This document shows, in pieces, positions 4,793 through 59,532 of a stretch of DNA of 64,000 bases. The stretch's first letter is position 1. The number at the start of each line of letters is the position of its first letter. Source of the stretch: an uncultured Verrucomicrobiota bacterium (lineage in GTDB: Bacteria; Verrucomicrobiota; Verrucomicrobiia; Chthoniobacterales; JACTMZ01); assembly GCA_903953565.1 (NCBI GenBank), contig CAJBKE010000055.1, forward strand, positions 65,957 through 129,956, given 5' to 3'. Below the pieces are notes generated by a model. The model saw only the letters and a program-made list of their open reading frames with translations, was not told the DNA's origin and made no database searches. The position numbers were made by a program, and so were the translations under genes.

Positions 4793-5935
4793 ATGAGGGT
4801 TGAGGCCTCACCACTCGCCACCCGCCACCCGTCACCCGCCACGGGTGCGAAGCACCTCTATATCCACATCCCCTTCTGCCTGCAGATCTGTCCCTACTGC
4901 AGCTTCTACAAAGACATCGCCGGACCGGGCAAAGCCGATCCGCTGGTCGAGGCCATCATTCGCGAGGCGGAACTTTTCGGAAACCGTTGCGCGCCGCACA
5001 CCGTGTTCATCGGGGGAGGAACACCCACCGCACTCTCCGTCACGCAACTTGAACGGCTCTTCGCCGGGTTGCAGCGGCACTTGGATTTCACCGACACGGA
5101 CGAATTCACCATCGAAATGAATCCGGCCACCGTGACAGCACGCAAAGCGGAGTTGCTGCGCGGCTTCGGCGTGAACCGGGTCAGCATGGGCGTGCAATCA
5201 TGGGATCCGCACCTGCTCAAGTTGCTCGGACGCGTCCACGACGCCGACCAAGTGCGCCGCTCTTTTGCCATCCTGCGCGAAGCAGGTTTTGACAATCTCA
5301 ACCTCGACCTGATCTACGGCGTTCCCGGACAAAGTTTGGCGCAATGGGAGGACAGCATCCGACAAACCGTTGGACTCGGGCCCGAACACATTTCGGCGTA
5401 TTGCCTTACCTACGAGGAAGACACCGAATACTTCGAGCGCATGACCCGTGGCGAATTCCGCGAGGACGTGGAAAGCGATGCCGGGTTCTTCGAGCGCGGG
5501 GTGGAAATGCTTTCGGCCGCGGGCTACGGGCAATACGAAATATCCAACCACGCACGCCCGGGTCGCGAGTGCCGGCACAACCTCGCGTATTGGGAAGGCG
5601 CGGATTACCTCGGACTCGGCCCCAGCGCGTGGTCAACGATCGGCGAGCGCCGCTGGCAGAACGCACCCGACACCGCCGCCTATGTGCAAGCCGTGCAAGC
5701 CGGCGTGCGTCCGCTTCGCAATGAAGAAATCCTCCCCGCCGCCACGCGCGAAGCGGAAAAAATCGCCTTCGGACTGCGCATGAACGCCGGCATCGATCCA
5801 GCCCGCCTCGCGGAACGGCATGAACTGATCAGCGGCCTGCGCGAGGAAGGTTTGCTCGAAGACCATGGCCCCCGCGTCCGCCTGACCCCCCGCGGCCGCC
5901 TCCTCGCCGACGAAATCGCCGCCGAGTTGATCTGA
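4793..5935 (+). CDS. hemW: Radical SAM heme chaperone HemW (HemN-like, oxygen-independent coproporphyrinogen oxidase family)
   Basis: HLYIHIPFCLQICPYCSFY carries the CxxxCxxC radical-SAM cluster motif. VFIGGGTP and the HemN C-terminal domain are present. The N-terminal 20 aa are encoded by a heptad repeat. Confidence 0.85.
   Translation: MRVEASPLATRHPSPATGAKHLYIHIPFCLQICPYCSFYKDIAGPGKADPLVEAIIREAELFGNRCAPHTVFIGGGTPTALSVTQLERLFAGLQRHLDFTDTDEFTIEMNPATVTARKAELLRGFGVNRVSMGVQSWDPHLLKLLGRVHDADQVRRSFAILREAGFDNLNLDLIYGVPGQSLAQWEDSIRQTVGLGPEHISAYCLTYEEDTEYFERMTRGEFREDVESDAGFFERGVEMLSAAGYGQYEISNHARPGRECRHNLAYWEGADYLGLGPSAWSTIGERRWQNAPDTAAYVQAVQAGVRPLRNEEILPAATREAEKIAFGLRMNAGIDPARLAERHELISGLREEGLLEDHGPRVRLTPRGRLLADEIAAELI
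4812..4846. repeat. (CACCCGY)5 heptad tandem repeat inside the hemW 5' end
   Basis: cactcgc cacccgc cacccgt cacccgc cacgggt, translated as LATRHPSPATG. Confidence 0.7.
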
Positions 5936-20456: not shown

Positions 20457-20520
20457 GTAGGGTCGGCTGGCCTCTCCGAGCCGGAGGCTCTACGAGCAGG
20501 AGGCCAGCCGACCGCTGCAG
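20457..20520. repeat. R3-related palindromic element (possible recJ terminator)
   Basis: GGTCGGCTGGCCTC (20461-20474) pairs with GAGGCCAGCCGACC (20500-20513). The pair encloses CTCCGAGCCGGAGG and is followed by T7. The core resembles the copies at 26157, 26491, 30343 and 59479. Confidence 0.5.
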
Positions 20521-20764: not shown

Positions 20765-20832
20765 TCGACTCTTCGTCTTTCGTCTCTTGGTCGCTTAGTC
20801 TATCCGCGTCGATCCGCGTTAATCCGTGGCTA
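20765..20832. repeat. TCGTCTY/TTGGTCG heptads followed by an R1 tail (3 x 10-bp ATCCGYGNNN)
   Basis: tcgtctt tcgtctc ttggtcg cttagtc, then atccgcgtcg atccgcgtta atccgtggct a. The tail contains the GT26 stop codon. Confidence 0.6.
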
Positions 20833-21592
20833 AATCTTCTTCGTCCTTCAACCGCGCCACCGGACTTTTGTCCCGGTAACGCGCGACCATTCCAATCAAA
20901 GGCAACGCACTCCAATACCGCGGAATGAACTTCCTCGGCTCGTAAATGCAACGCATGAGCCATCCGAGCCCACTGCGGTCGGCCCACACCGGAATCTTCG
21001 CCTGCGTTCCCGCGAGAAAAGCTACCGCGGCACCCGTGCAAACAATACCCGGACACAGATCAAGCCGCTCCCGCAACCACGCGCCGAGCACTTCCTGCTT
21101 TCCACCCGCAAGATTGAGAAACACCACCCGCGGCTTCGCACTCTTCAGTCTCCGCAGCAGTTCTTCATCCTTGATCGGATACCCGCGGTAAAACGGCGCC
21201 ACATACATATTCCCCTCGTCCACCGGAAAACCCTGCGTCCGCAACCACTCCGCAATCTTCCGCCCCTCCTCCTCCGTCGGCATCACCCAAAACGCCACCC
21301 CCGGCTCCGCCAACGCCGGATCCGCCAAAATCGCCTCGAGAAACTTCAACCCCGAATGCCGCGGCACACTCTTGCCCGTCGCCGCGCGATACACCGCCAC
21401 CATCACTGCGCTATCAGTCAACGCCACATCCGCAGTTTCCACCGCATGCCGATAATCCGGAACACTTCGCAACTCATTGGCCAAGTTCGGACCCGACGGC
21501 GCGACCACGAGCCCGCCACGCCAAGTCTCCGCCACCGCCCCCTCCACAGAGCCGGTAAAAAACGGAATCCCTAAAATTCGTTCGCGCGCCAT
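20819..21592 (-). CDS. WecB/TagA/CpsF-family (GT26) glycosyltransferase
   Basis: ILGIPFFTGS.., VVFLNLAGGKQEVLGAW, GTGAAVAFLAGT and PRWM-like ..LGWLMRCIYEPRK blocks typical of GT26. Confidence 0.8.
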   Translation of the reverse strand: MARERILGIPFFTGSVEGAVAETWRGGLVVAPSGPNLANELRSVPDYRHAVETADVALTDSAVMVAVYRAATGKSVPRHSGLKFLEAILADPALAEPGVAFWVMPTEEEGRKIAEWLRTQGFPVDEGNMYVAPFYRGYPIKDEELLRRLKSAKPRVVFLNLAGGKQEVLGAWLRERLDLCPGIVCTGAAVAFLAGTQAKIPVWADRSGLGWLMRCIYEPRKFIPRYWSALPLIGMVARYRDKSPVARLKDEEDLATD

Positions 21593-21668: not shown

Positions 21669-21813
21669 GGCTAAACCGCCGCCCGTCGGAACCGGAGGCC
21701 CGTCGGCCGTAGATGGCCCCATAGGCAATCACCCGACAGGCGGCACTCCCCCAGTCCGATCGGCTAACGGCCGTTCGGACATATCCGCGTTTATCTGCGT
21801 TAATCCGTGGCTA
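21669..21813. repeat. R1 element copy b (enlarged hairpin 1)
   Basis: GGCTAAACCGCC, then the 12-bp stem GCCGCCCGTCGG/CCGACAGGCGGC around a 44-nt loop, then GGCACTCCCCCAGTCCGATCGGC..GCCGTTCGGAC and three 10-bp units ending AATCCGTGGCTA. The terminal CTA is the stop codon of the next gene. Confidence 0.6.
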
Positions 21814-22377
21814 ATTCCTTCCGTCTTCGCTTTTCCATCGAGGACCTCGTTCGCTCGCCGGATTCCCCGCCACAATAGTATTCGCCGGGACATTCCGCGT
21901 GATCACAGAACCCGCCGCCGCCACCGCTTCTTCCCCGACCTCCACCCCCGGACCGACAAAAACCCCGGCTCCGATCCAAGCGCCACTGCCGATCGTGATC
22001 GGCGCATTGCGGTAGCTGAACTGCGGATCCCGGTAGTCATGGTTACCCGTGCAGAGAAAAGCTCGCTGAGAAATACACGCCTGCGCGCCGATCTTCACCG
22101 GTTCGAAATTCAGGATGAACACTTCTTCCCCGATCCACGCGTGATCACCCACCTTCAGTTTCCACGGGAAATGCACATTCACCCGCGGCTTGATCACCAC
22201 CCCCTCACCGACCTTCGCCCCGAACGCCCGCAGCAGCTTCGCTTTCAAGCCCATCGGCCAAGGCAATGCCGAAAGAAGAAACACACACTTCAGCAAATAC
22301 CACACCGCCTCGACCAACTTTGACCGCCCACGATCCAAGCCCTTCTCTGCATCGAACTGATCCAAACGCGTTTTCAT
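21811..22377 (-). CDS. Hexapeptide-repeat O-acetyltransferase (WcaF-like)
   Basis: LbH repeats IGAQACISQRAFLCTGNH, IGSGAWIGAGVFVGPGVEVGEEAV and the N-terminal membrane-associated segment resemble colanic-acid WcaF-type enzymes. Confidence 0.8.
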   Translation of the reverse strand: MKTRLDQFDAEKGLDRGRSKLVEAVWYLLKCVFLLSALPWPMGLKAKLLRAFGAKVGEGVVIKPRVNVHFPWKLKVGDHAWIGEEVFILNFEPVKIGAQACISQRAFLCTGNHDYRDPQFSYRNAPITIGSGAWIGAGVFVGPGVEVGEEAVAAAGSVITRNVPANTIVAGNPASERGPRWKSEDGRN

Positions 22378-23158: not shown

Positions 23159-23254
23159 GCGGGCAAACCGCCTCGAGCCGGGGTCACACGGCTCGAGGCA
23201 TTTCCCCAGTCCGTGCGGCTGTAAAGCCGCTCGAACTAATCCGCGTCTATCCGT
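23159..23254. repeat. R1 element copy c
   Basis: GGCGGGCAAACCG, then the perfect 10-bp hairpin CCTCGAGCCG-gggtcaca-CGGCTCGAGG (23171-23198), then CATTTCCCCAGTCCGTGCGGCT..AGCCGCTCGAAC and decamers. Confidence 0.65.
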
Positions 23255-23323
23255 GTTAATTTGGTCACAGCGGCGACCCGTCTCCGCTTCGCTCCGGCTG
23301 TGGCTAAACAACATGCATTTCAC

Positions 23324-25215: not shown

Positions 25216-25325
25216 GGACAAACCGCCTTACACTGAGGTCACTCGGTGCGAGGCATTTCATTAGTCCGAACGGCTGCAAGCCGCTCGGACCCCATCCGTG
25301 GCTATCCGCGTAAATCCGTGGCTAA
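25216..25325. repeat. R1 element copy d
   Basis: GGACAAACCGCC, then the hairpin CCTTACACTGAG-gtca-CTCGGTGCGAGG, then CATTTCATTAGTCCGAACGGCTGCAAGCCGCTCGGAC, then atccgtggct atccgcgtaa atccgtggct a. Confidence 0.65.
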
Positions 25326-25358
25326 AGTCTTTTCACTAGTCACCTGCCACCGCGCGTT

Positions 25359-27128
25359 TTACGCGCTCGCTGCCTCCGCCGCCCGCAATGCCTGCCGCGC
25401 GAAATTCTCACAACTGAACCTTTCCACAATCTCCCGCGACCGCCTCCCCATCTCCGTAATGCCGTCCGTCTCTTGGTCTTTTTGCCTCTTTGTCTTTTGG
25501 TCTGCGATGCGACGAAGCGCTTCGCTCAACGCATCGACCGAAGACGGATCAAAAACAAAGCCGTTGGAGCGTTGCTCCAACGGGCCGTCAGTGGCCGCAA
25601 GTCCTCCCAACTCTGCGCCCTTAGCGAACTTGGCGTGAGGCACCAGATCCTCCGCGCATCCAGCGGCGCGCGAGACGATCACCGGCAAGCCGGCTGCCAT
25701 CGCCTCATTCACCACAAGCCCCCATTCCTCTTTCAAACTCGGCAAGACAAACGCCTCCGCCAACGCATAGAACACCGGGTTCTCCTCAATCTGCCTGAAT
25801 CCATAGAAAAAAACCGCGCCGCGATCGTTTTCTAAGGAGTTTTCAGTGTTCGGTTTACAGTTTTGGATAAGGCCCGTCTCGCAAAGCCTCGGCTCAGCCT
25901 GACTCTGCAGACCCTCGCAGCCTGCTCGGGTCACCGAGCTGGCTGCATTCCCCTCAGTCCGATCGGCTGCAAGCCGCTCGGACTTATCCGTGTTAATCCG
26001 TGTTAATCCGTGGCCCGTCTTTTCCACTCTCACATCTGTCCTATCCACAACGCGCAAGCCCAGTCCCCGCGCCTGCTCCCGCAACGCCCTCTCAAGCTCC
26101 CCACTGCCCACAAAAACTAGCGCCACTGGTGTGTGACGAGTGTCGGTCGTCTCTCTGACTCCATGCTCCCTGCTCCTCTCCGACCCGTAAGGTCTACGAG
26201 CTGGAGGGCCAGCTCCATGCTTTTCACCGCTCGCACGCGCGAATCGCGCGTAGGCCTCGACGAGCGTTGAAAGATTCTTCTTCTCCACCATCCGCCCTAG
26301 ACTCAGGAAATAACGCTGAGGAAGACCGTAGGTCTTCCGAAAATCTGAAAAACCGAGCCGAGGCTTTGCGAGACAGCCCTTAGGCAAATTCTGAAACACT
26401 GAAACACTGTCTTCCCCTCCCTCTGACTGACCCCTGTCCCCCGACCCCTGTCTCCCTTCCTGCTCAGCCCCCGAGGCCTCCGGCCGCTCTTGCTCCACGC
26501 TCCGTGCTCCATGCTCCTCTCCGACCCGTAGGTTCTCCGAGCCGGAGGGCATGCTGCGCACTTCGTCCGCTTTCGCGGCGAAGAGCGCATTATCCACCGC
26601 ATCATACCCCGTGAAAATTTTGTCAGCCGGGATGCCGAGCGAAGCAAAGTGACGCTTGTGCGGCTCGCCGCCGACGAGGGCGGCATCGAACTGCTTCACG
26701 ATCTGACGCTTGATCCAACGCTTCCATCCGGTCGCCTGTTCCGTGCCCGCATGGCTTTCATTCATCATCACCGTCCGGATCCCGAGGGACTTGGCTGCGG
26801 CGAAGAGCGCGAAATAGCGCGCCGGCGAATAGCTCGGAAGAAAAGCCACATCAACCTTCTCCTCACGAAACAACTTCCGCGCCTTCAGGAACACATCGAA
26901 CGGCGAAGCCGCCTCCTCCACCCCATCACACAAAGTCTTGAGTCCAGCACACCTATTACCAGCTACCTGCGACTCGTTACCTTCATTCCACTCATACGTC
27001 GTCGTCGCTCCTGCAATCTGAACCGGAACCACGCGTACACCCTGTTCGGCAGCCGCCCTCTGCGATGCCACCACGCGGGCATGGTGGTAAGGCCCAAACT
27101 GGCCAAAAAAAATAGCGATGCTGCGCAT
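25359..27128 (-). CDS. GT4-family (GT-B) glycosyltransferase carrying several in-frame repeat-element insertions
   Basis: Start set at MRSIAIFFGQFGPYHH; the track start 27263 lies inside R1 copy f. GT4 blocks present: YFLSLGRMVEKKNLSTLVEAY, LVFVGSGELERAL, FVLPSLKEEWGLVVNEAMAAGLPVIVS, NGFVFDP. These blocks are separated by segments built from R1, R3, R4 and heptad DNA. The ORF is 589 aa versus roughly 350-400 aa typical for GT4. Confidence 0.75.
   Translation of the reverse strand: MRSIAIFFGQFGPYHHARVVASQRAAAEQGVRVVPVQIAGATTTYEWNEGNESQVAGNRCAGLKTLCDGVEEAASPFDVFLKARKLFREEKVDVAFLPSYSPARYFALFAAAKSLGIRTVMMNESHAGTEQATGWKRWIKRQIVKQFDAALVGGEPHKRHFASLGIPADKIFTGYDAVDNALFAAKADEVRSMPSGSENLRVGEEHGARSVEQERPEASGAEQEGRQGSGDRGQSEGGEDSVSVFQNLPKGCLAKPRLGFSDFRKTYGLPQRYFLSLGRMVEKKNLSTLVEAYARFARASGEKHGAGPPARRPYGSERSREHGVRETTDTRHTPVALVFVGSGELERALREQARGLGLRVVDRTDVRVEKTGHGLTRINTDKSERLAADRTEGNAASSVTRAGCEGLQSQAEPRLCETGLIQNCKPNTENSLENDRGAVFFYGFRQIEENPVFYALAEAFVLPSLKEEWGLVVNEAMAAGLPVIVSRAAGCAEDLVPHAKFAKGAELGGLAATDGPLEQRSNGFVFDPSSVDALSEALRRIADQKTKRQKDQETDGITEMGRRSREIVERFSCENFARQALRAAEAASA
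25865..26014. repeat. R1 element copy e, complete, inside the GT4 reading frame
   Basis: Hairpin GCAGCCTGCTCGG-gtca-CCGAGCTGGCTGC (25917-25946), then CATTCCCCTCAGTCCGATCGGCTGCAAGCCGCTCGGAC, then atccgtgtta atccgtgtta atccgtggcc. It is translated as ..GHGLTRINTDKSERLAADRTEGNAASSVTRAGCEG.. Confidence 0.7.
26157..26220. repeat. R3 element copy b (in frame in GT4)
   Basis: gactccatgctccctgctcctctccgacccgtaaggtctacgagctggagggccagctccatgc, read as KHGAGPPARRPYGSERSREHGV. Confidence 0.65.
26391..26554. repeat. R4 heptad block (CTGAAAC../CCCTGTC..) fused to R3 copy c (in frame in GT4)
   Basis: ctgaaacactgaaacactgtcttcccctccctctgactgacccctgtcccccgacccctgtctccc.. followed by ..tgctccacgctccgtgctccatgctcctctccgacccgtaggttctccgagccggagggcatgc. 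It is read as SGSENLRVGEEHGARSVEQ..GRQGSGDRGQSEGGEDSVSVFQ. Confidence 0.65.
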
Positions 27129-27175: not shown

Positions 27176-27286
27176 GGACAAACCGTCGCCTGTCGAGGCC
27201 ATCCGACAGGCGGCATTCCCCCCCTGTCCGATCAGCTGCAAGCCGCTCGGACCTTATCCTCATCCATCCGCGTCAATCCGTGGCTA
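27176..27286. repeat. R1 element copy f (fills the Wzy-GT4 intercistronic gap)
   Basis: GGACAAACCGT, then the perfect 9-bp hairpin CGCCTGTCG-aggccatc-CGACAGGCG (27187-27212), then GCATTCCCCCCCTGTCCGATCAGCTGCAAGCCGCTCGGAC, then decamers ending AATCCGTGGCTA. The tail contains the Wzy stop codon. Confidence 0.7.
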
Positions 27287-28688
27287 CAACTCCCCGGATC
27301 GACCTTCTCTGATTCCGCGCCGACCCTGCATTCAGCTTCGCGCTACGCCCAAACCACCAAGCTAACGCCACGATCGGAATCATCGCGTAAAGCATCTGGT
27401 AAAAATACTGCCAGAGGAAAAACCGCGTCAGGAACATCGCGTTCACCGTCACAATCCCAATCAAGCAATATTGGACGTAGCCACGCGGCATGGTGAGCAC
27501 ATACCAGTCAAGCCACGACAGGAGATATCCGAGCATGAACATCGAAAGCAGCATCCACAGCAAACCGCCATCGCGCAGAAACATTCCCGCGATTCCAGGC
27601 GAGTAAGGCGCACCTCGCGTGAACGTCATGTCCATCGTTATTCCCTGCTTCGGCTTGCCCTGCCACAGTGCCCGCGGCACGAAATGCAGGGGCACATATA
27701 GCCAAGACCACGCATAAGGCTTGTATGCTGGCTCGGTCTCTTTCGCCGCGACAAACGTGTCGAAGATATTCATGTCACCATCTGAATCGTAAAACTTCCA
27801 GTAAGCCTCACCTAAAGTGCGTTCTTCAAACACTGAATTAACCATGCCCTCTTCCGCTATCCGCTCATTCTCGGCGCCGCGAGTCTGCCCTAAATATTGG
27901 AAGAAGGGTTGCAGCACCACGATCGGTAAAATCAACCACGCATACCCCACCCTTCCTTGAAGCCTTTGTAAAACGGCAATGCCGGCAATCATCACTCCCG
28001 CGACGTAAAAACCTCGAAATAACGTTACATCACGCATCAGCCACGTGAACATTAGGAATAGCACCACCGAAACACTGAGCACCATCACGGTTCCTAGTGT
28101 CTTGCGTCGTAGGAATCCCTCGAACAGCACGACCACGGTTATGATGTGCACTGCCTGCAGCGGCATGGGCAAATCATAAACATACGCGCCAAAAGCGCTG
28201 CCGTAGAGCGAGCGCCCCCCCCGCGCGAGATAGAACATCACAGGCAACGTCGTCACCTGAAAAGCCAGCAATGCGGCACACACCTTTTGGCTCACCAAGG
28301 GTCGCAAGCTTTCCGCATTGTTCAGCGCACGACGCCGCCGGAGCCACCTAATGTGTAGACGTGGAAAAATGGCTGCCCCCAAAGCAAAGCAAACAAGCGC
28401 AGCGCTAGCCCACCATAAACCGTCGGTTATCTCATTCAACCCTACCCGCATTTGGAATAACCGCGTGAACAGCGTGTAATCTTTCTCCAACAACATATAA
28501 ACAGGCCGCACTCCAAAAAACAGAAACGACATAAATATGAACGCACCTGCCCCTGTCACCTGCTTACGATGGATTTCGCCGAGCAAAAGCACGAGTTGAC
28601 TCCCTACCAGCAGCCAGACCGAAGCCACCGTTCCAACAAGTGGATAAGCAGCCAGCAGGAGGAAAACAGCGGCAAAAACAAAGTTCAT
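27273..28688 (-). CDS. Polytopic membrane protein, probable O-antigen/EPS repeat-unit polymerase (Wzy-like)
   Basis: More than 10 predicted TM helices with one large hydrophilic loop (..ENERIAEEGMVNSVFEERTLGEAYWKFYDSDGD..). The locus context includes a Wzx and GT genes. No strict motif was found. Confidence 0.6.
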   Translation of the reverse strand: MNFVFAAVFLLLAAYPLVGTVASVWLLVGSQLVLLLGEIHRKQVTGAGAFIFMSFLFFGVRPVYMLLEKDYTLFTRLFQMRVGLNEITDGLWWASAALVCFALGAAIFPRLHIRWLRRRRALNNAESLRPLVSQKVCAALLAFQVTTLPVMFYLARGGRSLYGSAFGAYVYDLPMPLQAVHIITVVVLFEGFLRRKTLGTVMVLSVSVVLFLMFTWLMRDVTLFRGFYVAGVMIAGIAVLQRLQGRVGYAWLILPIVVLQPFFQYLGQTRGAENERIAEEGMVNSVFEERTLGEAYWKFYDSDGDMNIFDTFVAAKETEPAYKPYAWSWLYVPLHFVPRALWQGKPKQGITMDMTFTRGAPYSPGIAGMFLRDGGLLWMLLSMFMLGYLLSWLDWYVLTMPRGYVQYCLIGIVTVNAMFLTRFFLWQYFYQMLYAMIPIVALAWWFGRSAKLNAGSARNQRRSIRGVVATD

Positions 28689-29823: not shown

Positions 29824-31050
29824 TTAGTCTCCCGCAGCGTAGCGCAGCAGAGCTGGCGCAAGATGCCTTGGGTGAAACTTGTCCGGAACACGTGCATTCG
29901 ACTGGAGCTTTTCCAGAATCTCCCGATCGCGCACAAGCGCCATGATCGCCTCGGCGATCGCTTCAGGCGAGATCTCCGGCAGCACTAGGCCATTCACGCA
30001 GTCTTCCACCACGAGCCCGCAATGCGTGGAAGCAACCACTGGCAGCCCATGGCCCAGCGCCTCAAGCTGCGTTAGACCAAAGCCATCCGAAAGGGTGGGA
30101 AAAAGGAATACATCAGACGCCCGATACAGCCTCTCGACCGTCGCTTTGTCCACCGGACCAAGAAAGCGCACGTTCGACAGCTGCGAGATCTCGTCCGGAA
30201 TCTTTACCCCAAGCGGACCAGCGAAGGTGAAGTCCACCGGCTCATTCTTCAGCATCCTGATCGCATCGAACAGCTGCCCTACCCCCTTCCGCAAAATCAC
30301 GCTCCCGAGAAACAAGGCCCGCAGCCGCGTATCGGGTCTCTTCTCCATGCTCCACGCTCCTCTCCGACCCGTAGGTTCTCCGAGCCGGAGGACATGCTCC
30401 ATGCTGCCGCTGGCCTCATAGACCAGCGGCACCTCCACGAGCTTCGCGGCACTTACCCCCGCTTCGATCCAGTTTCTTTTCGACCACTGGGAGTTCACGA
30501 TGATCTTATCCGCCATCTCGATTTCCCGCCGGAGGCCATCCCAATACTCTTTGGGCGCATCGATAGTTTGTCCGAGGTCCAAGGCCAGGTAGTTCGCCGC
30601 CGCGCGGCGCGTGATATCTTCCTCCATCCAGGCGAGATCGATCAGATCGAGAACGCAACGCATACCCTTCCTGCGCGCCACTTCAAAAGGCCACTGGGCG
30701 TTGTAGCTGTAAGAGAAAACTGTTTTCCCATCGACCACCTCAAGTTGATTAGCGCACCATTTGCCAAACCAGCTGATACGATACATACACGTCTGCCACG
30801 AACTCATGTGCTGCAACCTTACCCGAGCCTCGTAAACGAAGCGTCCCGCATTGGCGCGACGCACAAGTGCATCCGGAATCTGTGTGCTCCGGCGTGCTGC
30901 AATATTCGGGGCCAACGGCTTGAGTAGCTTTGCCTCACCAGCCGTCACCCAACTGTCCGCGAGCAGTGCAGAGAGCTTGCCTTCTTTGTGCAAAGCCGCC
31001 GGCACGGCGTAGTGCTCCCGCGATCCTAGTTGGCAGCAGATCCAAGACAT
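29824..31050 (-). CDS. GT4-family glycosyltransferase with one in-frame R3 insertion
   Basis: ALFLGSVILRKGVGQLFDA, VFLFPTLSDGFGLTQLEALGHGLPVVAS, NGLVLP. The insert MEHVLRLGEPTGRRGAWSME lies just before the C-terminal domain. Confidence 0.8.
   Translation of the reverse strand: MSWICCQLGSREHYAVPAALHKEGKLSALLADSWVTAGEAKLLKPLAPNIAARRSTQIPDALVRRANAGRFVYEARVRLQHMSSWQTCMYRISWFGKWCANQLEVVDGKTVFSYSYNAQWPFEVARRKGMRCVLDLIDLAWMEEDITRRAAANYLALDLGQTIDAPKEYWDGLRREIEMADKIIVNSQWSKRNWIEAGVSAAKLVEVPLVYEASGSMEHVLRLGEPTGRRGAWSMEKRPDTRLRALFLGSVILRKGVGQLFDAIRMLKNEPVDFTFAGPLGVKIPDEISQLSNVRFLGPVDKATVERLYRASDVFLFPTLSDGFGLTQLEALGHGLPVVASTHCGLVVEDCVNGLVLPEISPEAIAEAIMALVRDREILEKLQSNARVPDKFHPRHLAPALLRYAAGD
30343..30404. 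repeat. R3 element copy d (in frame in GT4)
   Basis: ctccatgctccacgctcctctccgacccgtaggttctccgagccggaggacatgctccatgc. Confidence 0.65.
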
Positions 31051-39980: not shown

Positions 39981-40091
39981 CTCTAAACTTTTAGCAAATT
40001 GAACATGCCGTTTGGTAAATAATCCAAGTCAACAAGGAGATCAGGCCTTGCTCTGCGCTTTTCCTAGGTTTGAGGATGACTTCAACATTTT

Positions 40092-40130
40092 CCCCTAAGA
40101 CGAGCCGCCAGATGGATTTGTTATGCTTAC
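40092..40130 (-). promoter_or_regulatory. R2 box copy a: GCATAAC-N17-CGTCTTA (minus-strand sense), ECF-sigma-like promoter candidate upstream of wzx
   Basis: Minus-sense -35-like GCATAAC (40126-40120), a 17-nt spacer, then -10-like CGTCTTA (40102-40096). It lies about 115 nt upstream of the wzx start. The 39-nt core is conserved in three copies. Confidence 0.45.
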
Positions 40131-40198
40131 TTGCTATCGACTTTCACAAATTCGCAGCTAACCAGCAGCGAACTGCGGCTAAACACGACCATGCTCAA

Positions 40199-42234: not shown

Positions 42235-42326
42235 GGCTAACGGCGCTTAAGATGTTTCCGACAATATGCATGTTCAGTGAGTAGTGCTCCTGCCTCTCAA
42301 ATACTGGAGCACGAATTCAAACTCTG

Positions 42327-42365
42327 CCCGTAAGACGAGCCGCCGGGTGGATTTGTTGTGCTCAC
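42327..42365 (-). promoter_or_regulatory. R2 box copy b: GCACAAC-N17-CGTCTTA upstream of the acyltransferase gene
   Basis: Minus-sense GCACAAC (42361-42355), a 17-nt spacer, then CGTCTTA (42337-42331). It lies about 97 nt upstream of ATG 42234. Confidence 0.45.
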
Positions 42366-42500
42366 TTTTTGATAGATCACGGGGTGATCAGCATGGAGCG
42401 TGGAGCGCGGAGCCTGGAGCGGTTCCGGCTGAACACTGCAAACTGAACACTGGAAACTCCTCTTCTGTTCCTCCGTAAGAGCCAGTCTCCTAAGTCAGCG
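42366..42500. repeat. Composite spacer: GATCAC-ggg-GTGATC hairpin, (NNNGGAG)4 heptads, CTGAACA/CTGCAAA heptads
   Basis: gatcacggggtgatc agcatggag cgtggag cgcggag cctggag.. ctgaaca ctgcaaa ctgaaca ctggaaa. The first 45 nt recur at 46021-46060. Confidence 0.55.
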
Positions 42501-44567: not shown

Positions 44568-44740
44568 CTTCGTGGGGGGCACCACATGTCATGTTGCTGG
44601 CCGCACGAAGCATGTTGCTGCGCGCACGAACTTCGTGGTGGCCACCACATGTCATGTTGCTAGCTGCACAAAGCATGTTGCTGGTCGCACATAGTTCGTG
44701 GTGGCCCCCACAAGGCTTGTTGCCAGTCGCACATGGTCAT
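44568..44740. repeat. Tandem array: 63-bp unit x ~2.8, each unit made of three related 18-24-bp sub-units (GCACNAAGCATGTTGCTGGYC-like)
   Basis: Unit starts are at 44568, 44631 and 44694. Sub-unit starts are at 44579, 44603, 44624, 44642, 44666, 44687, 44705 and 44729. The array contains CTTCGTG/CACGAAG inverted repeats and the palindrome CACGAAcTTCGTG. Confidence 0.7.
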
Positions 44741-45862: not shown

Positions 45863-45963
45863 ACCATTGCAATCCTAAGCAGCATCAGGCCCAAAGCAAA
45901 CCGATAGATAGACCCGCTAGTCCTCCATGCACACCACATCGACGACAATGACTGCAAAATTTC

Positions 45964-46002
45964 CCCGTAAGACGAACCGCCAGACGGATTTGTTGTGCTC
46001 AC
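45964..46002 (-). promoter_or_regulatory. R2 box copy c: GCACAAC-N17-CGTCTTA upstream of the UPF0175-MNT-HEPN block
   Basis: Minus-sense GCACAAC (45998-45992), a 17-nt spacer, then CGTCTTA (45974-45968). It lies about 106 nt upstream of ATG 45862. Confidence 0.45.
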
Positions 46003-46200
46003 TTTTTCCATCTTCAAACGTAGATCACGGCGTGATCAGCATGGAGCGTGGAGCTCGGAGCAGATTAGACTAAAAAACCGAACACCGAAGACTGAGCTGA
46101 GGCTCTGCGTCCCCGTCTTTCTTTCTTTAGTTTCTTGGTCTTTTAGTCCCCGCGGCTCTGTGTCTCAGTGAGAACTAGGCTCTTAGCCCCGCGAGGTTAG
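46003..46200. repeat. Composite heptad-rich spacer (GATCAC-ggc-GTGATC hairpin, NNNGGAG heptads, CCGAACA/CCGAAGA, TCTTGGTCTTTTAGTC words)
   Basis: It shares tagatcacggNgtgatcagcatggagcgtggagc with 42372-42410 and tcttggtcttttagt with 49010-49050 (reverse complement), 20780 and 25470. Confidence 0.5.
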
Positions 46201-48989: not shown

Positions 48990-49057
48990 GGAGCGGTGCG
49001 GCGAAGCCGCGGACTAGAGACTAAGAGACGAAGGAACTAAAAGACCAAGAGACAGCC

Positions 49058-49140
49058 GAGTCTGCGGAGATGGGTCGCCGCGGCGACCAAACGGGTAACG
49101 AGTCGAGCCGCTACTCGGGCTTTTCGGCGACGCGGGCGGT
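49058..49140. repeat. 83-84-bp direct repeat copy 1 (covers the last 10 codons of DUF2442 gene 1 plus 53 nt downstream)
   Basis: gagtctgcggagatgGGTCGCCGCGGCGACCaaacgggtaacgagtcgagccgctactcgggcttttcggcgacgcgggcggt. It contains a 16-bp perfect palindrome. Confidence 0.75.
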
Positions 49141-49642: not shown

Positions 49643-49726
49643 GGACTCTGCGGAGACGGGTCGCCGCGGCGACCAAACGGGTAACGAGTGGAGCCGCTAC
49701 TCGGGCTTTTCGGCGACGCGGGCGGT
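49643..49726. repeat. 83-84-bp direct repeat copy 2
   Basis: ggactctgcggagacgGGTCGCCGCGGCGACCaaacgggtaacgagtggagccgctactcgggcttttcggcgacgcgggcggt, nearly identical to 49058-49140. Confidence 0.75.
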
Positions 49727-51418: not shown

Positions 51419-51805
51419 CTAGGATGTTGGGCGGGTTTTCAAGGTGCGGCGGAAAGCGAAGATCATTTTGCTTTGCTGTTCCAATTCCTCAAGCAGCGGA
51501 TGGGTGTCTTTTTCGTCAAGATAGCCGTTTTTAGTAAGCAAGCTGAGCATACTAGCCACTTCGTAGACCGAGCGGCGGGAGAACTTGAGAAAGTTGGCGA
51601 AATCATCGGGTGAGTCGCTGCCGGAACCTTCAGCTATGTTGTTGGTGATACTGAGCGTCGCGGCACGGAGTTGCTCGGCAAAGCGGTGGAATTTGCGCTC
51701 GTCCAGCTTTTCAGCCAATGCGAATAGAGATGTGGTCGCGGTTGCCGCGCGCTGCCAAATCTCCAACGATTCGAACCGGAATTTTGCTTCGTTCTGCGAC
51801 TCCAT
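51419..51805 (-). CDS. Four-helix-bundle protein (23S rRNA intervening-sequence protein family)
   Basis: Start moved to [20 protein letters not shown]. Contains [18 protein letters not shown] and [18 protein letters not shown]. Confidence 0.8.
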
Positions 51806-51834
51806 GCTCCAAGCCCCAGGCTCCATGCTTCGCT

Positions 51835-52362
51835 TCACTCCGCGGCGACTTGCTTGATCATGGGGAGGATGTCGTTGAGAAGGCGGTGCCACGTTTCGAC
51901 TTTGCCCAGACGCGTGCGTTGAAACTCGGCCTCCGGAGAGTCGTCCTCGATACTGAGCGCGAGGGACTCAAGGTGATCGCGTCCGTTTTCGAGATGCGGT
52001 TCGATGCGCATCCGCAAGATGCCCCCGGCAAGTTTGCGCAGGTTGACCTCCGCGCGGTAATGGTCCTTGCGCACCCCGGGGAGGAACACTTTTTCCACAG
52101 CACCCATTTGCCGCAGCCAATCAAGACCCTCCCATGTGCCGCCGCGGCTGGCGCTGAGCAGGGCGGTCATTTCGTCGAGATTGAGCGGACGGGAGGTGGA
52201 AAAGAGCAGACCGTAAACCTGTCCGGCCGAACGCGGCAGGGACAAGGCATCGGCCGCCCGAACAAAGAGTTCGATGGTCTGCCCCTGGAAGGTATTTAAC
52301 CCATTCCGGGCAAGCTGCCGCCCTTGGTCAACACGTCGTGTTTGAACCCCGGCAGATGACAT
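51835..52362 (-). CDS. GbsR/MarR-type winged-helix transcriptional regulator
   Basis: IELFVRAADALSLPRSAGQVYGLLFSTSRPLNLDEMTALLSASRGGTWEGLDWLRQMGAV. Confidence 0.75.
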   Translation of the reverse strand: MSSAGVQTRRVDQGRQLARNGLNTFQGQTIELFVRAADALSLPRSAGQVYGLLFSTSRPLNLDEMTALLSASRGGTWEGLDWLRQMGAVEKVFLPGVRKDHYRAEVNLRKLAGGILRMRIEPHLENGRDHLESLALSIEDDSPEAEFQRTRLGKVETWHRLLNDILPMIKQVAAE

Positions 52363-59402: not shown

Positions 59403-59532
59403 AGTGGATCGCGATGTTTGCCTAGGGGCCATCTGCGCTCCGCTTCGGTTCCATCGCGACTGCCAGGCTGAAATATCGCGCCGGGCTCCCGGCTCGTAGA
59501 GCCTACAGCTCGGAGAGACGGCGCGATCCACC
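59403..59532. mobile_element. R5 MITE-like element carrying a nested R3-type element
   Basis: The termini are (a)GTGGATCGCG .. CGCGATCCACC. The interior matches the copy at 11551-11649 in reverse complement. The extra ~40 nt ccgggctcccggctcgtagagcctacagctcggagagacgg (59479-59520) is an inverted R3 core. Confidence 0.55.

What the first reader, a model, noticed from the sequence alone, without database searches (positions are those of the whole stretch)
26157..26554. The same ~60-bp R3 element is translated in all three reading frames in three different insertions
The R3 core in gene sense is ..CTCCGGCTCGGAGAACCTACGGGTCGGAGAGGAGCATGGAGC... At 26491-26554 it is read as ..SGSENLRVGEEHGARSVEQ. 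At 30343-30404 (a different GT4 gene) it is read as ..VLRLGEPTGRRGAWSMEK. At 26157-26220 it is read as ..PARRPYGSERSREHGV. Taking the shared GGGTCGGAGAGG, the three copies use frames cGG-GTC-GGA-GAG-G, acG-GGT-CGG-AGA-GG and GGG-TCG-GAG-AGG. By hand translation the element has no stop codon in any sense-strand frame and only one (TAG) among the three antisense frames. All coding copies are in the stop-free orientation. An element that can land in any phase of an ORF without truncating it is either strongly filtered by selection or has evolved to be coding-neutral.
Basis: seen in the sequence. Interest (0 to 1): 0.7.

Follow-up and report, generated by a model that had tools for sequence, protein, structure and literature searches.

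The report
Tiny hairpin repeat inserted within genes
A 33-base hairpin-forming repeat has been copied into short 7-base repeat tracts inside sugar-transferase genes of an uncultured soil bacterium, and it survives there as an extra 11-amino-acid loop in whichever reading frame it lands. This is a new example of known "selfish DNA inside genes", not an element specially built to be translatable.

Summary
Three copies of one repeat lie inside two GT4 glycosyltransferase genes of an uncultured Chthoniobacterales bacterium, and they are read in codon phases 0, 1 and 2.

The mobile unit is 33 nt (11 codons), not about 60 bp. Orthologous genes in a related contig have all three sites empty, each with a gap of exactly 33 nt. 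Each insertion sits at ATG^GAGC (or NGG^GAGC) inside a heptamer tract (ATGGAGC)n, with no target duplication. Because 7 mod 3 = 1, such a tract offers the same target in all three phases.

The "stop-free" claim is only partly true and is not statistically unusual. Copy 1 carries a sense-strand TAG that happens to be out of phase. In this window, 48% of all 33-mers are stop-free in all three frames of a given strand.

R3 is a subtype of a 33-nt structured core that is more than 90% identical in Desulfobacterota and Verrucomicrobiota MAGs. That core is mostly intergenic, and its consensus has a TAG on each strand.

The best reading is a REP/SDR-like micro-element that is tolerated in disordered loops and filtered by selection. 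Intragenic REPs of Opitutus terrae and Rickettsia RPEs are precedents. How the element is mobilised is unknown.

The parts
26176..26208 (-). R3 copy 1. The 33-nt unit in gene sense is CCCTCCAGCTCGTAGACCTTACGGGTCGGAGAG. It is read as (G)PPARRPYGSER(S), inserted at codon phase 2, and carries an out-of-phase TAG.
   Evidence: A gap of exactly 33 nt in the orthologue L122. An identical 33-mer lies at a different site of an orthologous GT4 in L150. nhmmer E = 1.3e-9.
26517..26549 (-). R3 copy 2. The 33-nt unit in gene sense is CCCTCCGGCTCGGAGAACCTACGGGTCGGAGAG. It is read as PSGSENLRVGE and is inserted after a complete ATG codon (phase 0).
   Evidence: A gap of exactly 33 nt in L122. The insert is shared with L148 and P0027. 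An identical 33-mer lies in another GT4 in L100.
30360..30392 (-). R3 copy 3. The 33-nt unit in gene sense is TCCTCCGGCTCGGAGAACCTACGGGTCGGAGAG. It is read as (V)LRLGEPTGRR(G) and is inserted at phase 1.
   Evidence: A gap of exactly 33 nt in the L122 orthologue, whose empty site reads SGSMEHGAWSMER. The same site is filled in P0169, P0170 and P0181, and is read in another frame in P0132/L151.
26491..26516 (-). Heptamer tract (GCTCCNN)n, which is (ATGGAGC)n in gene sense, flanking copy 2. It is the insertion target. Similar tracts flank copy 1 (26158-26175 and 26209-26221) and copy 3 (30342-30359 and 30393-30405).
   Evidence: TRF finds period 7. The pattern search gives 14 matches against 0.02 expected. 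Orthologues keep the tract without R3.
25359..27128 (-). GT4 glycosyltransferase gene 1 (589 aa, P0001), the host of copies 1 and 2. It carries at least 5 variable insert segments built from repeats.
   Evidence: Pfam Glycos_transf_1 and Glyco_transf_4. Alignment A1. In the AF2 model the fold has pLDDT above 90 and the inserts (196-260, 305-331, 368-430) have pLDDT below 50. The identical protein occurs on 7 contigs.
29824..31050 (-). GT4 glycosyltransferase gene 2 (408 aa), the host of copy 3, which sits in the interdomain linker.
   Evidence: Pfam, with the C-domain starting at aa 238 and R3 just before it. The linker is hypervariable among 120 orthologues.
20472..20504 (+). Intergenic family member (pan-type core CTCTCCGAGCCGGAGGCTCTACGAGCAGGAGGC). 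It sits at the apex of a perfect 20-nt palindrome (20461-20471 / 20505-20513) and is followed by a T-run, downstream of an ORF and upstream of tRNA-Ala.
   Evidence: Removing the 33 nt leaves GGTCGGCTGGCCAGCCGACC, read directly.
59485..59517 (-). Intergenic family member (CTCTCCGAGCTGTAGGCTCTACGAGCCGGGAGC) enclosed by a complementary outer stem (about 59473-59484 / 59518-59530), between two + strand ORFs.
   Evidence: The same context occurs in the Chthoniobacter MAG loci L080 and L003.
26457..26486 (-). A further 30-nt insert (GAGCAAGAGCGGCCGGAGGCCTCGGGGGCT in gene sense) next to copy 2. It is absent from L122 and partly shared with L148.
   Evidence: No other copy was found in the data held.

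Best explanation
R3 is a 33-nt structured micro-repeat. It has a GTAG-tagged stem-loop enclosed by a second short helix, so it resembles REP and SDR elements.

Shown:
- It has been copied, without target duplication, into heptanucleotide tracts (ATGGAGC)n.
- These tracts already sat in disordered linker or loop positions of GT4 glycosyltransferase genes of a Chthoniobacterales bacterium.
- The unit is 3 x 11 nt, so it never shifts the frame.
- The target recurs every 7 nt, so it is offered in all three codon phases.
- The sequence is G+C-rich, so most phases are open anyway.

Inferred:
- Selection then removes copies that bring a stop into phase or that are 32 nt long.
- The peptides themselves have no function.
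- The enzyme or process that copies the unit is not identified.
For: Insertion polarity and unit size.
- All three sites are empty in the orthologous genes of L122. The gaps are exactly 33 nt and the junctions are ATG^/NGG^...^GAGC inside heptamer tracts.
- Most orthologues have the tract without R3.

Recent copying.
- The copy-2 33-mer recurs in another GT4 gene of a different MAG (L100).
- The copy-1 33-mer recurs at another site in L150.

Family and structure.
- At least 119 stretches in genome contigs carry a core more than 90% identical to R3, with unrelated flanks.
- The two-helix fold is supported by covariation: 27 double-change cells, with 0 of 500 shuffles reaching that score. A simple long hairpin is not supported.

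Tolerance.
- The AF2 model gives pLDDT above 90 for the GT-B fold and below 50 for every insert segment.
- The identical protein is found on 7 contigs from several samples.

Filter.
- The family is mostly intergenic.
- The consensus has a TAG on each strand.
- The TAG-bearing subtype is seen in ORFs only in the permissive phase.
- A 32-nt copy disrupts a gene in L049.

No special design is needed.
- The stop-free status is expected from composition.

Precedent.
- Intragenic GTAG REPs of Opitutus terrae are translated in several frames (PMC3733652).
- Rickettsia RPEs are inserted in frame in ORFs (PMC10969869).
Against: - No full-genome census was possible. Only 5 family copies lie in the 64-kb window, and about 5 independent in-ORF events were found in all, every one of them in GT4 genes.
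- All in-ORF copies have one orientation. A pure filter predicts only about 60:40, so target or orientation specificity, or peptide-level selection, may also act.
- The unit is 33 nt at the ORF sites but 32 nt in L049, so the native length is uncertain.
- No mobilising enzyme was found.
- Patchy presence of the copy-3 insert among orthologues could mean repeated insertion, loss or recombination.
Confidence: 0.7

Rival explanations
1. R3 has been shaped by selection on the element itself to be open in all three sense frames (coding-neutral by design), so that it can colonise ORFs.
For: - The TAG-less subtype (GGAGAAC in place of GTAGAGC) is the commonest one inside ORFs. It occurs as an identical sequence at copies 2 and 3 and in L100.
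- The same insert is read in two different frames in orthologues because the heptamer tract changes by 7 nt. Three open frames are therefore useful in practice.
Against: - 28-46% of shuffles of the 33-mer, and 48% of all 33-mers of the window, are equally stop-free.
- Copy 1 and L150 carry a sense TAG.
- The family consensus has a stop on each strand and is mostly intergenic.
- The same TAG-less 33-mer also occurs outside clear coding sequence (L142).
Confidence: 0.12
2. R3 does not transpose. It spreads between heptamer tracts by homologous recombination or gene conversion, using the tracts on both sides as homology, and whole linker cassettes are swapped between alleles and paralogues.
For: - R3 is flanked by the same heptamers on both sides at four sites.
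- The three-way alignment shows mosaic cassettes. L148 shares copy 2 but carries different modules after it and at site B.
- The same modules (EWRVTSDES, GVASPPQA, ESSVGS..) recur in both GT4 paralogue families.
Against: - The family core also sits in unrelated contexts where flank homology cannot explain the transfer. These include the apex of unique palindromes, octamer and hexamer tracts, a ~300-nt MITE, and the inside of transposase genes.
- In L100 the flanking heptamers are different (CCTGTCC).
Confidence: 0.25
3. R3 is an ordinary GTAG-type REP mobilised as single-stranded DNA by a RAYT (Y1 HUH transposase) encoded elsewhere in the genome.
For: - A GTAG lies immediately 5' of a 5-bp stem-loop (GTAG-GCTC-TAC-GAGCC).
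- There is no target duplication.
- Intragenic GTAG REPs are most numerous in the verrucomicrobium O. terrae (PMC3733652).
Against: - No RAYT gene was found next to any copy in about 0.9 Mb of loci. The only Y1-like fragment (L049) is interrupted by the core rather than flanked by it, and Pfam did not confirm it.
- Copies in the window are singletons, not inverted pairs.
- Near-identity of the core across phyla is, from my own knowledge of REP/RAYT systems, atypical. This was not checked in a paper.
Confidence: 0.25
4. The hairpin or its peptides are functional parts of these GT4 genes (an mRNA regulatory structure or a linker peptide) and are conserved for that reason.
For: - The sense-strand RNA folds somewhat better than shuffles (z = -1.6 to -2.2).
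- All in-ORF copies share one orientation.
Against: - Three frames give three unrelated peptides.
- Close orthologues lack the insert.
- The insert segments are predicted to be disordered.
- The fold supported by covariation is strand-symmetric, and the family is mostly intergenic.
Confidence: 0.06

Closest known systems
Intragenic GTAG-tagged REPs, especially in Opitutus terrae (Di Nocera et al. 2013, BMC Genomics 14:522, PMC3733652)
   Same: - Short GTAG-tagged stem-loop repeats that are mostly extragenic.
- Dozens are inserted in frame in ordinary genes of a verrucomicrobium.
- One family (GTAG-19) is translated as GTGVPPV, TGGTPVP, HGRDARAT, WHGRPAR and VARAPRP, that is in several frames and both orientations.
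   Different: - The R3 sequence is unrelated to the listed peptides.
- R3 has an extra outer helix and a fixed 33-nt unit.
- It lies in heptamer tracts, as singletons rather than dimers.
- Its core is shared across phyla.
- No RAYT link is shown.
Rickettsia palindromic elements (RPE; Ogata et al. 2000, as summarised in PMC10969869 and PMC3733652)
   Same: Palindromic selfish repeats inserted in frame into many unrelated protein-coding genes. They add a peptide segment that is compatible with the fold.
   Different: - RPEs are about 100-150 bp.
- They encode a conserved peptide read in one frame.
- They are restricted to Rickettsia.
- R3 is 33 nt, is read in three frames, and belongs to a cross-phylum family.
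Small dispersed repeats (SDR) of Nostocaceae (Elhai et al. 2008, Genome Res 18:1484; paper not held, cited in PMC3116915 and PMC5861425; details are from my memory of its abstract)
   Same: - Very small (21-27 nt) dispersed repeats.
- A conserved hairpin supported by compensatory changes.
- Often embedded in tandem heptamer repeats or in mini-transposons.
- No known enzyme.
   Different: - A different sequence and different phyla.
- R3 is 33 nt.
- I do not know of in-frame residence in ORFs being a feature of SDRs.
- SDR-like repeats were reported as confined to Nostocaceae.
Heptanucleotide-repeat elements of Geobacter metallireducens (Aklujkar et al. 2009, PMC2700814)
   Same: [quoted passage not shown] This is a precedent for heptamer tracts inside genes of a Desulfobacterota genome.
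   Different: - A different heptamer.
- No nested hairpin unit is described.
- The authors interpreted them as regulatory sites.

Membership tests
GTAG-type REP / REPIN (RAYT-mobilised) | GTAG tetranucleotide at the 5' side of a short imperfect palindrome of 20-40 bp | tested here: met
   The core is ..GC[Y]-GTAG-GCTC-TAC-GAGCC-GGA-[R]GC. Columns 12, 14 and 16 are invariant and column 13 is conserved in at least 90% of sequences. Stem 15-19/23-27 is 93% paired.
GTAG-type REP / REPIN (RAYT-mobilised) | A RAYT (Y1 HUH transposase) gene in the same genome, typically flanked by the repeats | tested here: inconclusive
   A motif scan of all loci found one Y1-like fragment (L049), which is interrupted by the core rather than flanked by it, and Pfam gave no hit. 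The full source genome is not available.
GTAG-type REP / REPIN (RAYT-mobilised) | High copy number, mostly extragenic, often as inverted pairs | tested here: inconclusive
   The wider family is mostly in short open stretches. The window holds 5 singletons, 3 of them intragenic. Genome copy number is unknown.
Rickettsia palindromic elements (RPE) | A palindromic repeat of about 100-150 bp that encodes one conserved peptide, in Rickettsia | tested here: not met
   The unit is 33 nt, it gives three different peptides, and the host is Chthoniobacterales.
Rickettsia palindromic elements (RPE) | In-frame insertion into otherwise intact, conserved ORFs at positions compatible with the fold | tested here: met
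   Empty against filled orthologous sites. Intact GT-B fold with disordered inserts.
Cyanobacterial SDR elements | Very small unit embedded in tandem heptamer repeats or mini-transposons | tested here: met
   R3 lies in heptamer tracts. Pan-type cores lie in 6-8-mer tracts and in a ~300-nt MITE with terminal inverted repeats.
Cyanobacterial SDR elements | Conserved secondary structure supported by compensatory changes | tested here: met
   Pairs 9-33 (GC 36 / CG 8), 11-31 (CG 33 / UA 17) and 15-27. 0 of 500 shuffles reach the covariation score. Caveat: the sample was selected by a sequence pattern.
Cyanobacterial SDR elements | Sequence families SDR1-8, confined to Nostocaceae | not tested
   The host phyla differ. 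The SDR sequences were not at hand, so only the kind can be compared, not membership.
MITE | Terminal inverted repeats and target-site duplication, 70-300 bp | tested here: not met
   33 nt, no TIR distinct from the hairpin, and no duplication at the three junctions.
Rfam RNA families | Match to a curated covariance model | tested here: not met
   The gathering scan of the whole window finds only tRNA. The E-value scan of one intergenic copy gives a best E of 1.1.

The most novel reading that the evidence does not exclude
R3 belongs to an undescribed, horizontally spread family of 32-33-nt structured mobile units. These would be among the smallest mobile elements known.
- They insert precisely and without target duplication into short tandem repeats, hairpin apices, MITEs and even transposase genes.
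- They occur in Desulfobacterota and Verrucomicrobiota alike.
- In Chthoniobacterales a TAG-less subtype, together with 7-nt tract slippage, turns enzyme linkers into frame-sliding, hypervariable cassettes.
Probability: 0.35. Interest if true: 0.65.

Novelty: new member of a known kind. Interest (0 to 1): 0.45.

Why it matters
- It gives a clean case of empty against filled sites for a 33-nt unit inside essential-looking enzymes. This shows how much foreign sequence the linkers of GT-B enzymes can absorb.
- It shows that heptamer tracts plus a three-frame-open insert let the same DNA be read in different frames in close relatives.
- Gene callers and protein clustering will treat such inserts as real sequence. 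They inflate length variation (375-632 aa among orthologues here) and create spurious low-complexity "motifs".
- If the cross-phylum core is truly mobile, finding its enzyme would address the question left open by the cyanobacterial SDRs: how do elements too small to carry any recognisable ends move?

Tried and rejected
- **Rfam.** The gathering scan of the window and an E-value scan of one copy gave no family.
- **Literature string search** for the core sequence found nothing.
- **Metagenome scan** for the R3 subtype returned only 27 stretches, mostly intergenic-looking, which is too few for a census.
- **Protein search with a synthetic 111-aa concatenate** of the five open R3 frames gave 9 weak hits and did not even recover P0001, so it is uninformative.
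- **A simple long hairpin** (pairs 3-15/19-31) as the conserved fold was rejected: no covariation and 71% paired, the same as shuffles.
- **Long-ORF heuristic for coding status** gave false positives. Examples are window 59485-59517, and L011 and L106, where the core lies upstream of the real start. Each in-ORF claim therefore rests on homology or Pfam instead.
- **RAYT association.** One motif hit only, not confirmed by Pfam.
- **The extra 30-nt inserts** next to copy 2 and in L122 were searched for as repeats. No other copy was found.
- **Elhai et al. 2008** could not be read because it is not held.
Full report
**What is at the coordinates**

The window comes from an uncultured Chthoniobacterales bacterium (Verrucomicrobiota). 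The 589-aa product of ORF 25359..27128(-) is identical to a protein seen on 7 metagenome contigs, and its named relatives are Chthoniobacterales glycosyltransferases.

The repeat is real:
- A 35-mer core occurs twice exactly, against 0 expected.
- The repeat finder returns a three-copy family at 26159-26221, 26500-26562 and 30343-30405.
- The first two copies lie in one GT4 glycosyltransferase ORF and the third in another, both on the minus strand.

From the ORF coordinates, the shared GGGTCGGAGAGG starts at codon position 1, 2 and 3 respectively. The translations are PPARRPYGSER, PSGSENLRVGE and LRLGEPTGRR.

**The unit is 33 nt and was inserted**

I fetched the orthologous locus of a related genome (L122) and aligned both GT4 genes at the DNA level. 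All three sites are empty there, and each gap is exactly 33 nt. In gene sense the junctions are:
- GCATG^CCCTCC...GGAGAG^GAGCATGG
- GCTGG^CCCTCC...GGAGAG^GAGCAGGG
- GCATG^TCCTCC...GGAGAG^GAGCGTGG

The unit [C/T]CCTCCGGCTCGGAGAACCTACGGGTCGGAGAG therefore sits inside a heptamer tract (ATGGAGC)n, with no target duplication. TRF and a pattern search find such tracts at seven places in the window, with or without R3. Most orthologues carry the tract alone, encoded as SMEHGAWSME and similar peptides.

The insertion points are at codon phase 0 (copy 2), phase 1 (copy 3) and phase 2 (copy 1). Two plain facts explain the "three frames":
- 33 = 3 x 11, so no frameshift arises in any phase.
- A 7-nt periodic target (7 mod 3 = 1) presents the same junction in all three phases.

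**Stops**

Copy 1 has a sense-strand TAG (TCG-TAG-ACC) that is simply out of phase.

The stop-free status is not remarkable:
- 28-46% of mono- or dinucleotide shuffles of the 33-mer are stop-free in three frames.
- For the 62-64-nt versions the figure is 7-14%.
- 48% of all 33-mers in the window are stop-free on a given strand, and 25% of all 64-mers.

**A wider family**

Most are Desulfobacterota MAGs, many are Verrucomicrobiota, and a few are other bins.

- The 33-nt core CTCTCCGAGC[Y]GTAGGCTCTACGAGCCGGA[R]GC has a mean column identity of 92%, while the flanks are unrelated.
- The flanks include 6-8-nt tandem tracts on both sides and perfectly complementary stems whose apex the core occupies. 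The window copy at 20472-20504 is an example: removing it leaves the 20-nt palindrome GGTCGGCTGGCCAGCCGACC.
- The core also lies inside a ~300-nt MITE with terminal inverted repeats, and inside transposase genes.
- Covariation supports a fold of two helices around a 3x3 internal loop, with a free 5' tail: pairs 9-33, 11-31 and 15-27, 27 double-change cells, and 0 of 500 shuffles reaching the score. It does not support a single long hairpin. The caveat is that the sample was selected by a sequence pattern.
- R3 is the subtype with C9/G33 and, in copies 2 and 3, GGTTCTCC in place of GGCTCTAC.
- No Rfam family matches, and the string is not in the paper library.

**Coding against non-coding**

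- Nearly all pan-type copies lie in short open stretches.
- nhmmer finds 5 family copies in the window: the 3 in GT4 genes and 2 intergenic.
- The consensus carries a TAG in one frame on each strand.

Verified in-ORF copies outside the window:
- L100 has a 33-mer identical to copy 2 in a third GT4, in the loop equivalent to the copy-1 site, read as GPPARRTYGSER.
- L150/P0090 has a 33-mer identical to copy 1 at yet another heptamer tract, in the same TAG-hiding phase.
- L148 and P0027 are orthologues of copy 2.
- P0169, P0170 and P0181 carry the copy-3 insert.
- P0132/L151 also carries the copy-3 insert, but there it is read in a different frame, because the tract downstream of it is 7 nt shorter and the sequence upstream differs.

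Among 240 GT4 homologues, 9 carry R3-like peptides in sense frames and none in the two open antisense frames. However, the heptamer tracts themselves are also always in one orientation (51 proteins against 0), and R3 has a fixed orientation relative to the tract. The bias therefore cannot be assigned to stop avoidance.

A counter-example to "never disrupts" exists. In L049 a 32-nt copy splits ...GHLF|QNRYKS...YIHLNPLRA of a Y1-transposase-like gene, with a frameshift and an in-phase TAG. The family assignment rests on motifs I recognise from my own knowledge, and Pfam gave no hit.

**Why it is tolerated**

- In alignment A1, orthologues of 375-632 aa share conserved blocks and differ at about 7 sites that are filled with recurring repeat-derived peptides.
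- An AF2 model of the 589-aa protein has pLDDT above 90 for the GT-B fold and below 50 for residues 196-260, 305-331 and 368-430. These are the insert segments that contain R3 copy 2 (residues 194-204) and copy 1 (residues 308-318).
- Copy 3 lies just before the C-domain of the second GT4. That linker has dozens of alternative versions among 120 orthologues.
- A three-way alignment shows that whole modules are swapped between close relatives.

**Mechanism**

Shown:
- Precise 33-nt presence or absence at three sites.
- Identical units at different loci and in different genomes.
- A conserved fold.
- Residence in disordered loops.

Inferred:
- Copy-and-insert activity followed by purifying selection.

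Unknown:
- The mobilising activity. A RAYT-type enzyme is suggested by the GTAG tag and the lack of duplication, but it is unsupported by any linked gene. Recombination through the flanking tracts may explain spread among heptamer tracts, but not the unrelated contexts.

**Comparison with what is known**

- Di Nocera et al. (PMC3733652) list about 70 intragenic GTAG REPs in the verrucomicrobium Opitutus terrae. One family is translated in several frames and orientations.
- Rickettsia RPEs are the classic in-frame case.
- Nostoc SDRs share the very small size, the conserved hairpin and the heptamer-tract context. The reference is known only through citing papers, and the details are from my memory.
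- Geobacter metallireducens has heptamer tracts inside genes.

R3 is therefore a new family of a known kind. The possibly new parts are the cross-phylum 33-nt core and the frame-sliding it permits.

**Verdict**

- The "stop-free by design" reading is not supported statistically.
- The selection-filter reading is supported.
- Interest is moderate.

Noticed in passing
window 25951-26020; also 20801-20836, 21748-21817, 23209-23269, 25264-25328, 27226-27290: A second repeat family, made of the hairpin GTCCGATCGGCTGCAAGCCGCTCGGAC followed by TATCCGYGTTAATCCGTGGC. The copy at 25951-26020 is read in frame in the GT4 gene (GHGLTRINTDKSERLAADRTEG) and is shared by several orthologues. The other copies are intergenic, and one lies just upstream of the GT4 start.
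   Followed up: partly
window 25447-25503, 46130-46166, 49012-49074: 8-nt tracts of the AAGACCAAGAGAC type. One is translated at the C-terminal part of the GT4 protein (DQKTKRQKDQET). In the orthologue L122 a similar tract lies near the N-terminus instead.
   Followed up: no
window 51799-51831 with gene 51419..51892(-); L052: A heptamer tract (GCTCCNN)n sits directly upstream of, or in the N-terminal extension of, a PF05635 23S_rRNA_IVP (four-helix-bundle) gene. A Desulfobacterota locus shows an HGAWSMEHG-coding tract before a similar gene.
   Followed up: partly
L037 and L039 (one Desulfobacterota contig): The core lies inside IS91-family (PF04986 Y2_Tnp) transposase gene fragments. A 750-nt, 99.5%-identical segment shared by the two loci ends 2 nt past the core. 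In L039 the core is read in frame as PPARRAYGSE at a deletion junction.
   Followed up: partly
L019, L107, L007, L052, L013, L018, L112, L055, L108 (Desulfobacterota MAGs): A ~230-330-nt MITE-like element with terminal inverted repeats TAGCCCGGATGTTTCATGAAT / ATTCATGAAACATCCGGGCTA carries the 33-nt core near one end.
   Followed up: no
L122:~5270-5300 (orthologue of the GT4 gene): A 30-nt insert, TCCGCCTACGCCCTGCGGGTCTACGGCGTGA (SAYALRVYGVT), lies inside the otherwise invariant EQATG|WKRW block of the N-domain and is absent from the window. No other copy was found.
   Followed up: partly
window 44568-44733: A 63-nt tandem repeat with 2.6 copies, 83% matches, and an internal 21-nt periodicity.
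   Followed up: no
window 49058-49140 and 49644-49726; 40072-40132, 42307-42367, 45944-46004: An 83-nt direct repeat pair at 96% identity, 586 nt apart, and a three-copy 61-nt family. Two copies of the latter (42307, 45944) are each followed by a heptamer tract (42388-42420, 46036-46061) in regions without long ORFs.
   Followed up: no
L142 and L126 (freshwater metagenome contigs): The R3-type core lies in the opposite orientation, 12 aa upstream of the conserved part of a MarR-like regulator (it would read LRPVGSPSRRA). I could not tell whether it is inside the ORF or in the leader. If it is coding, it would be the only antisense in-ORF copy.
   Followed up: partly
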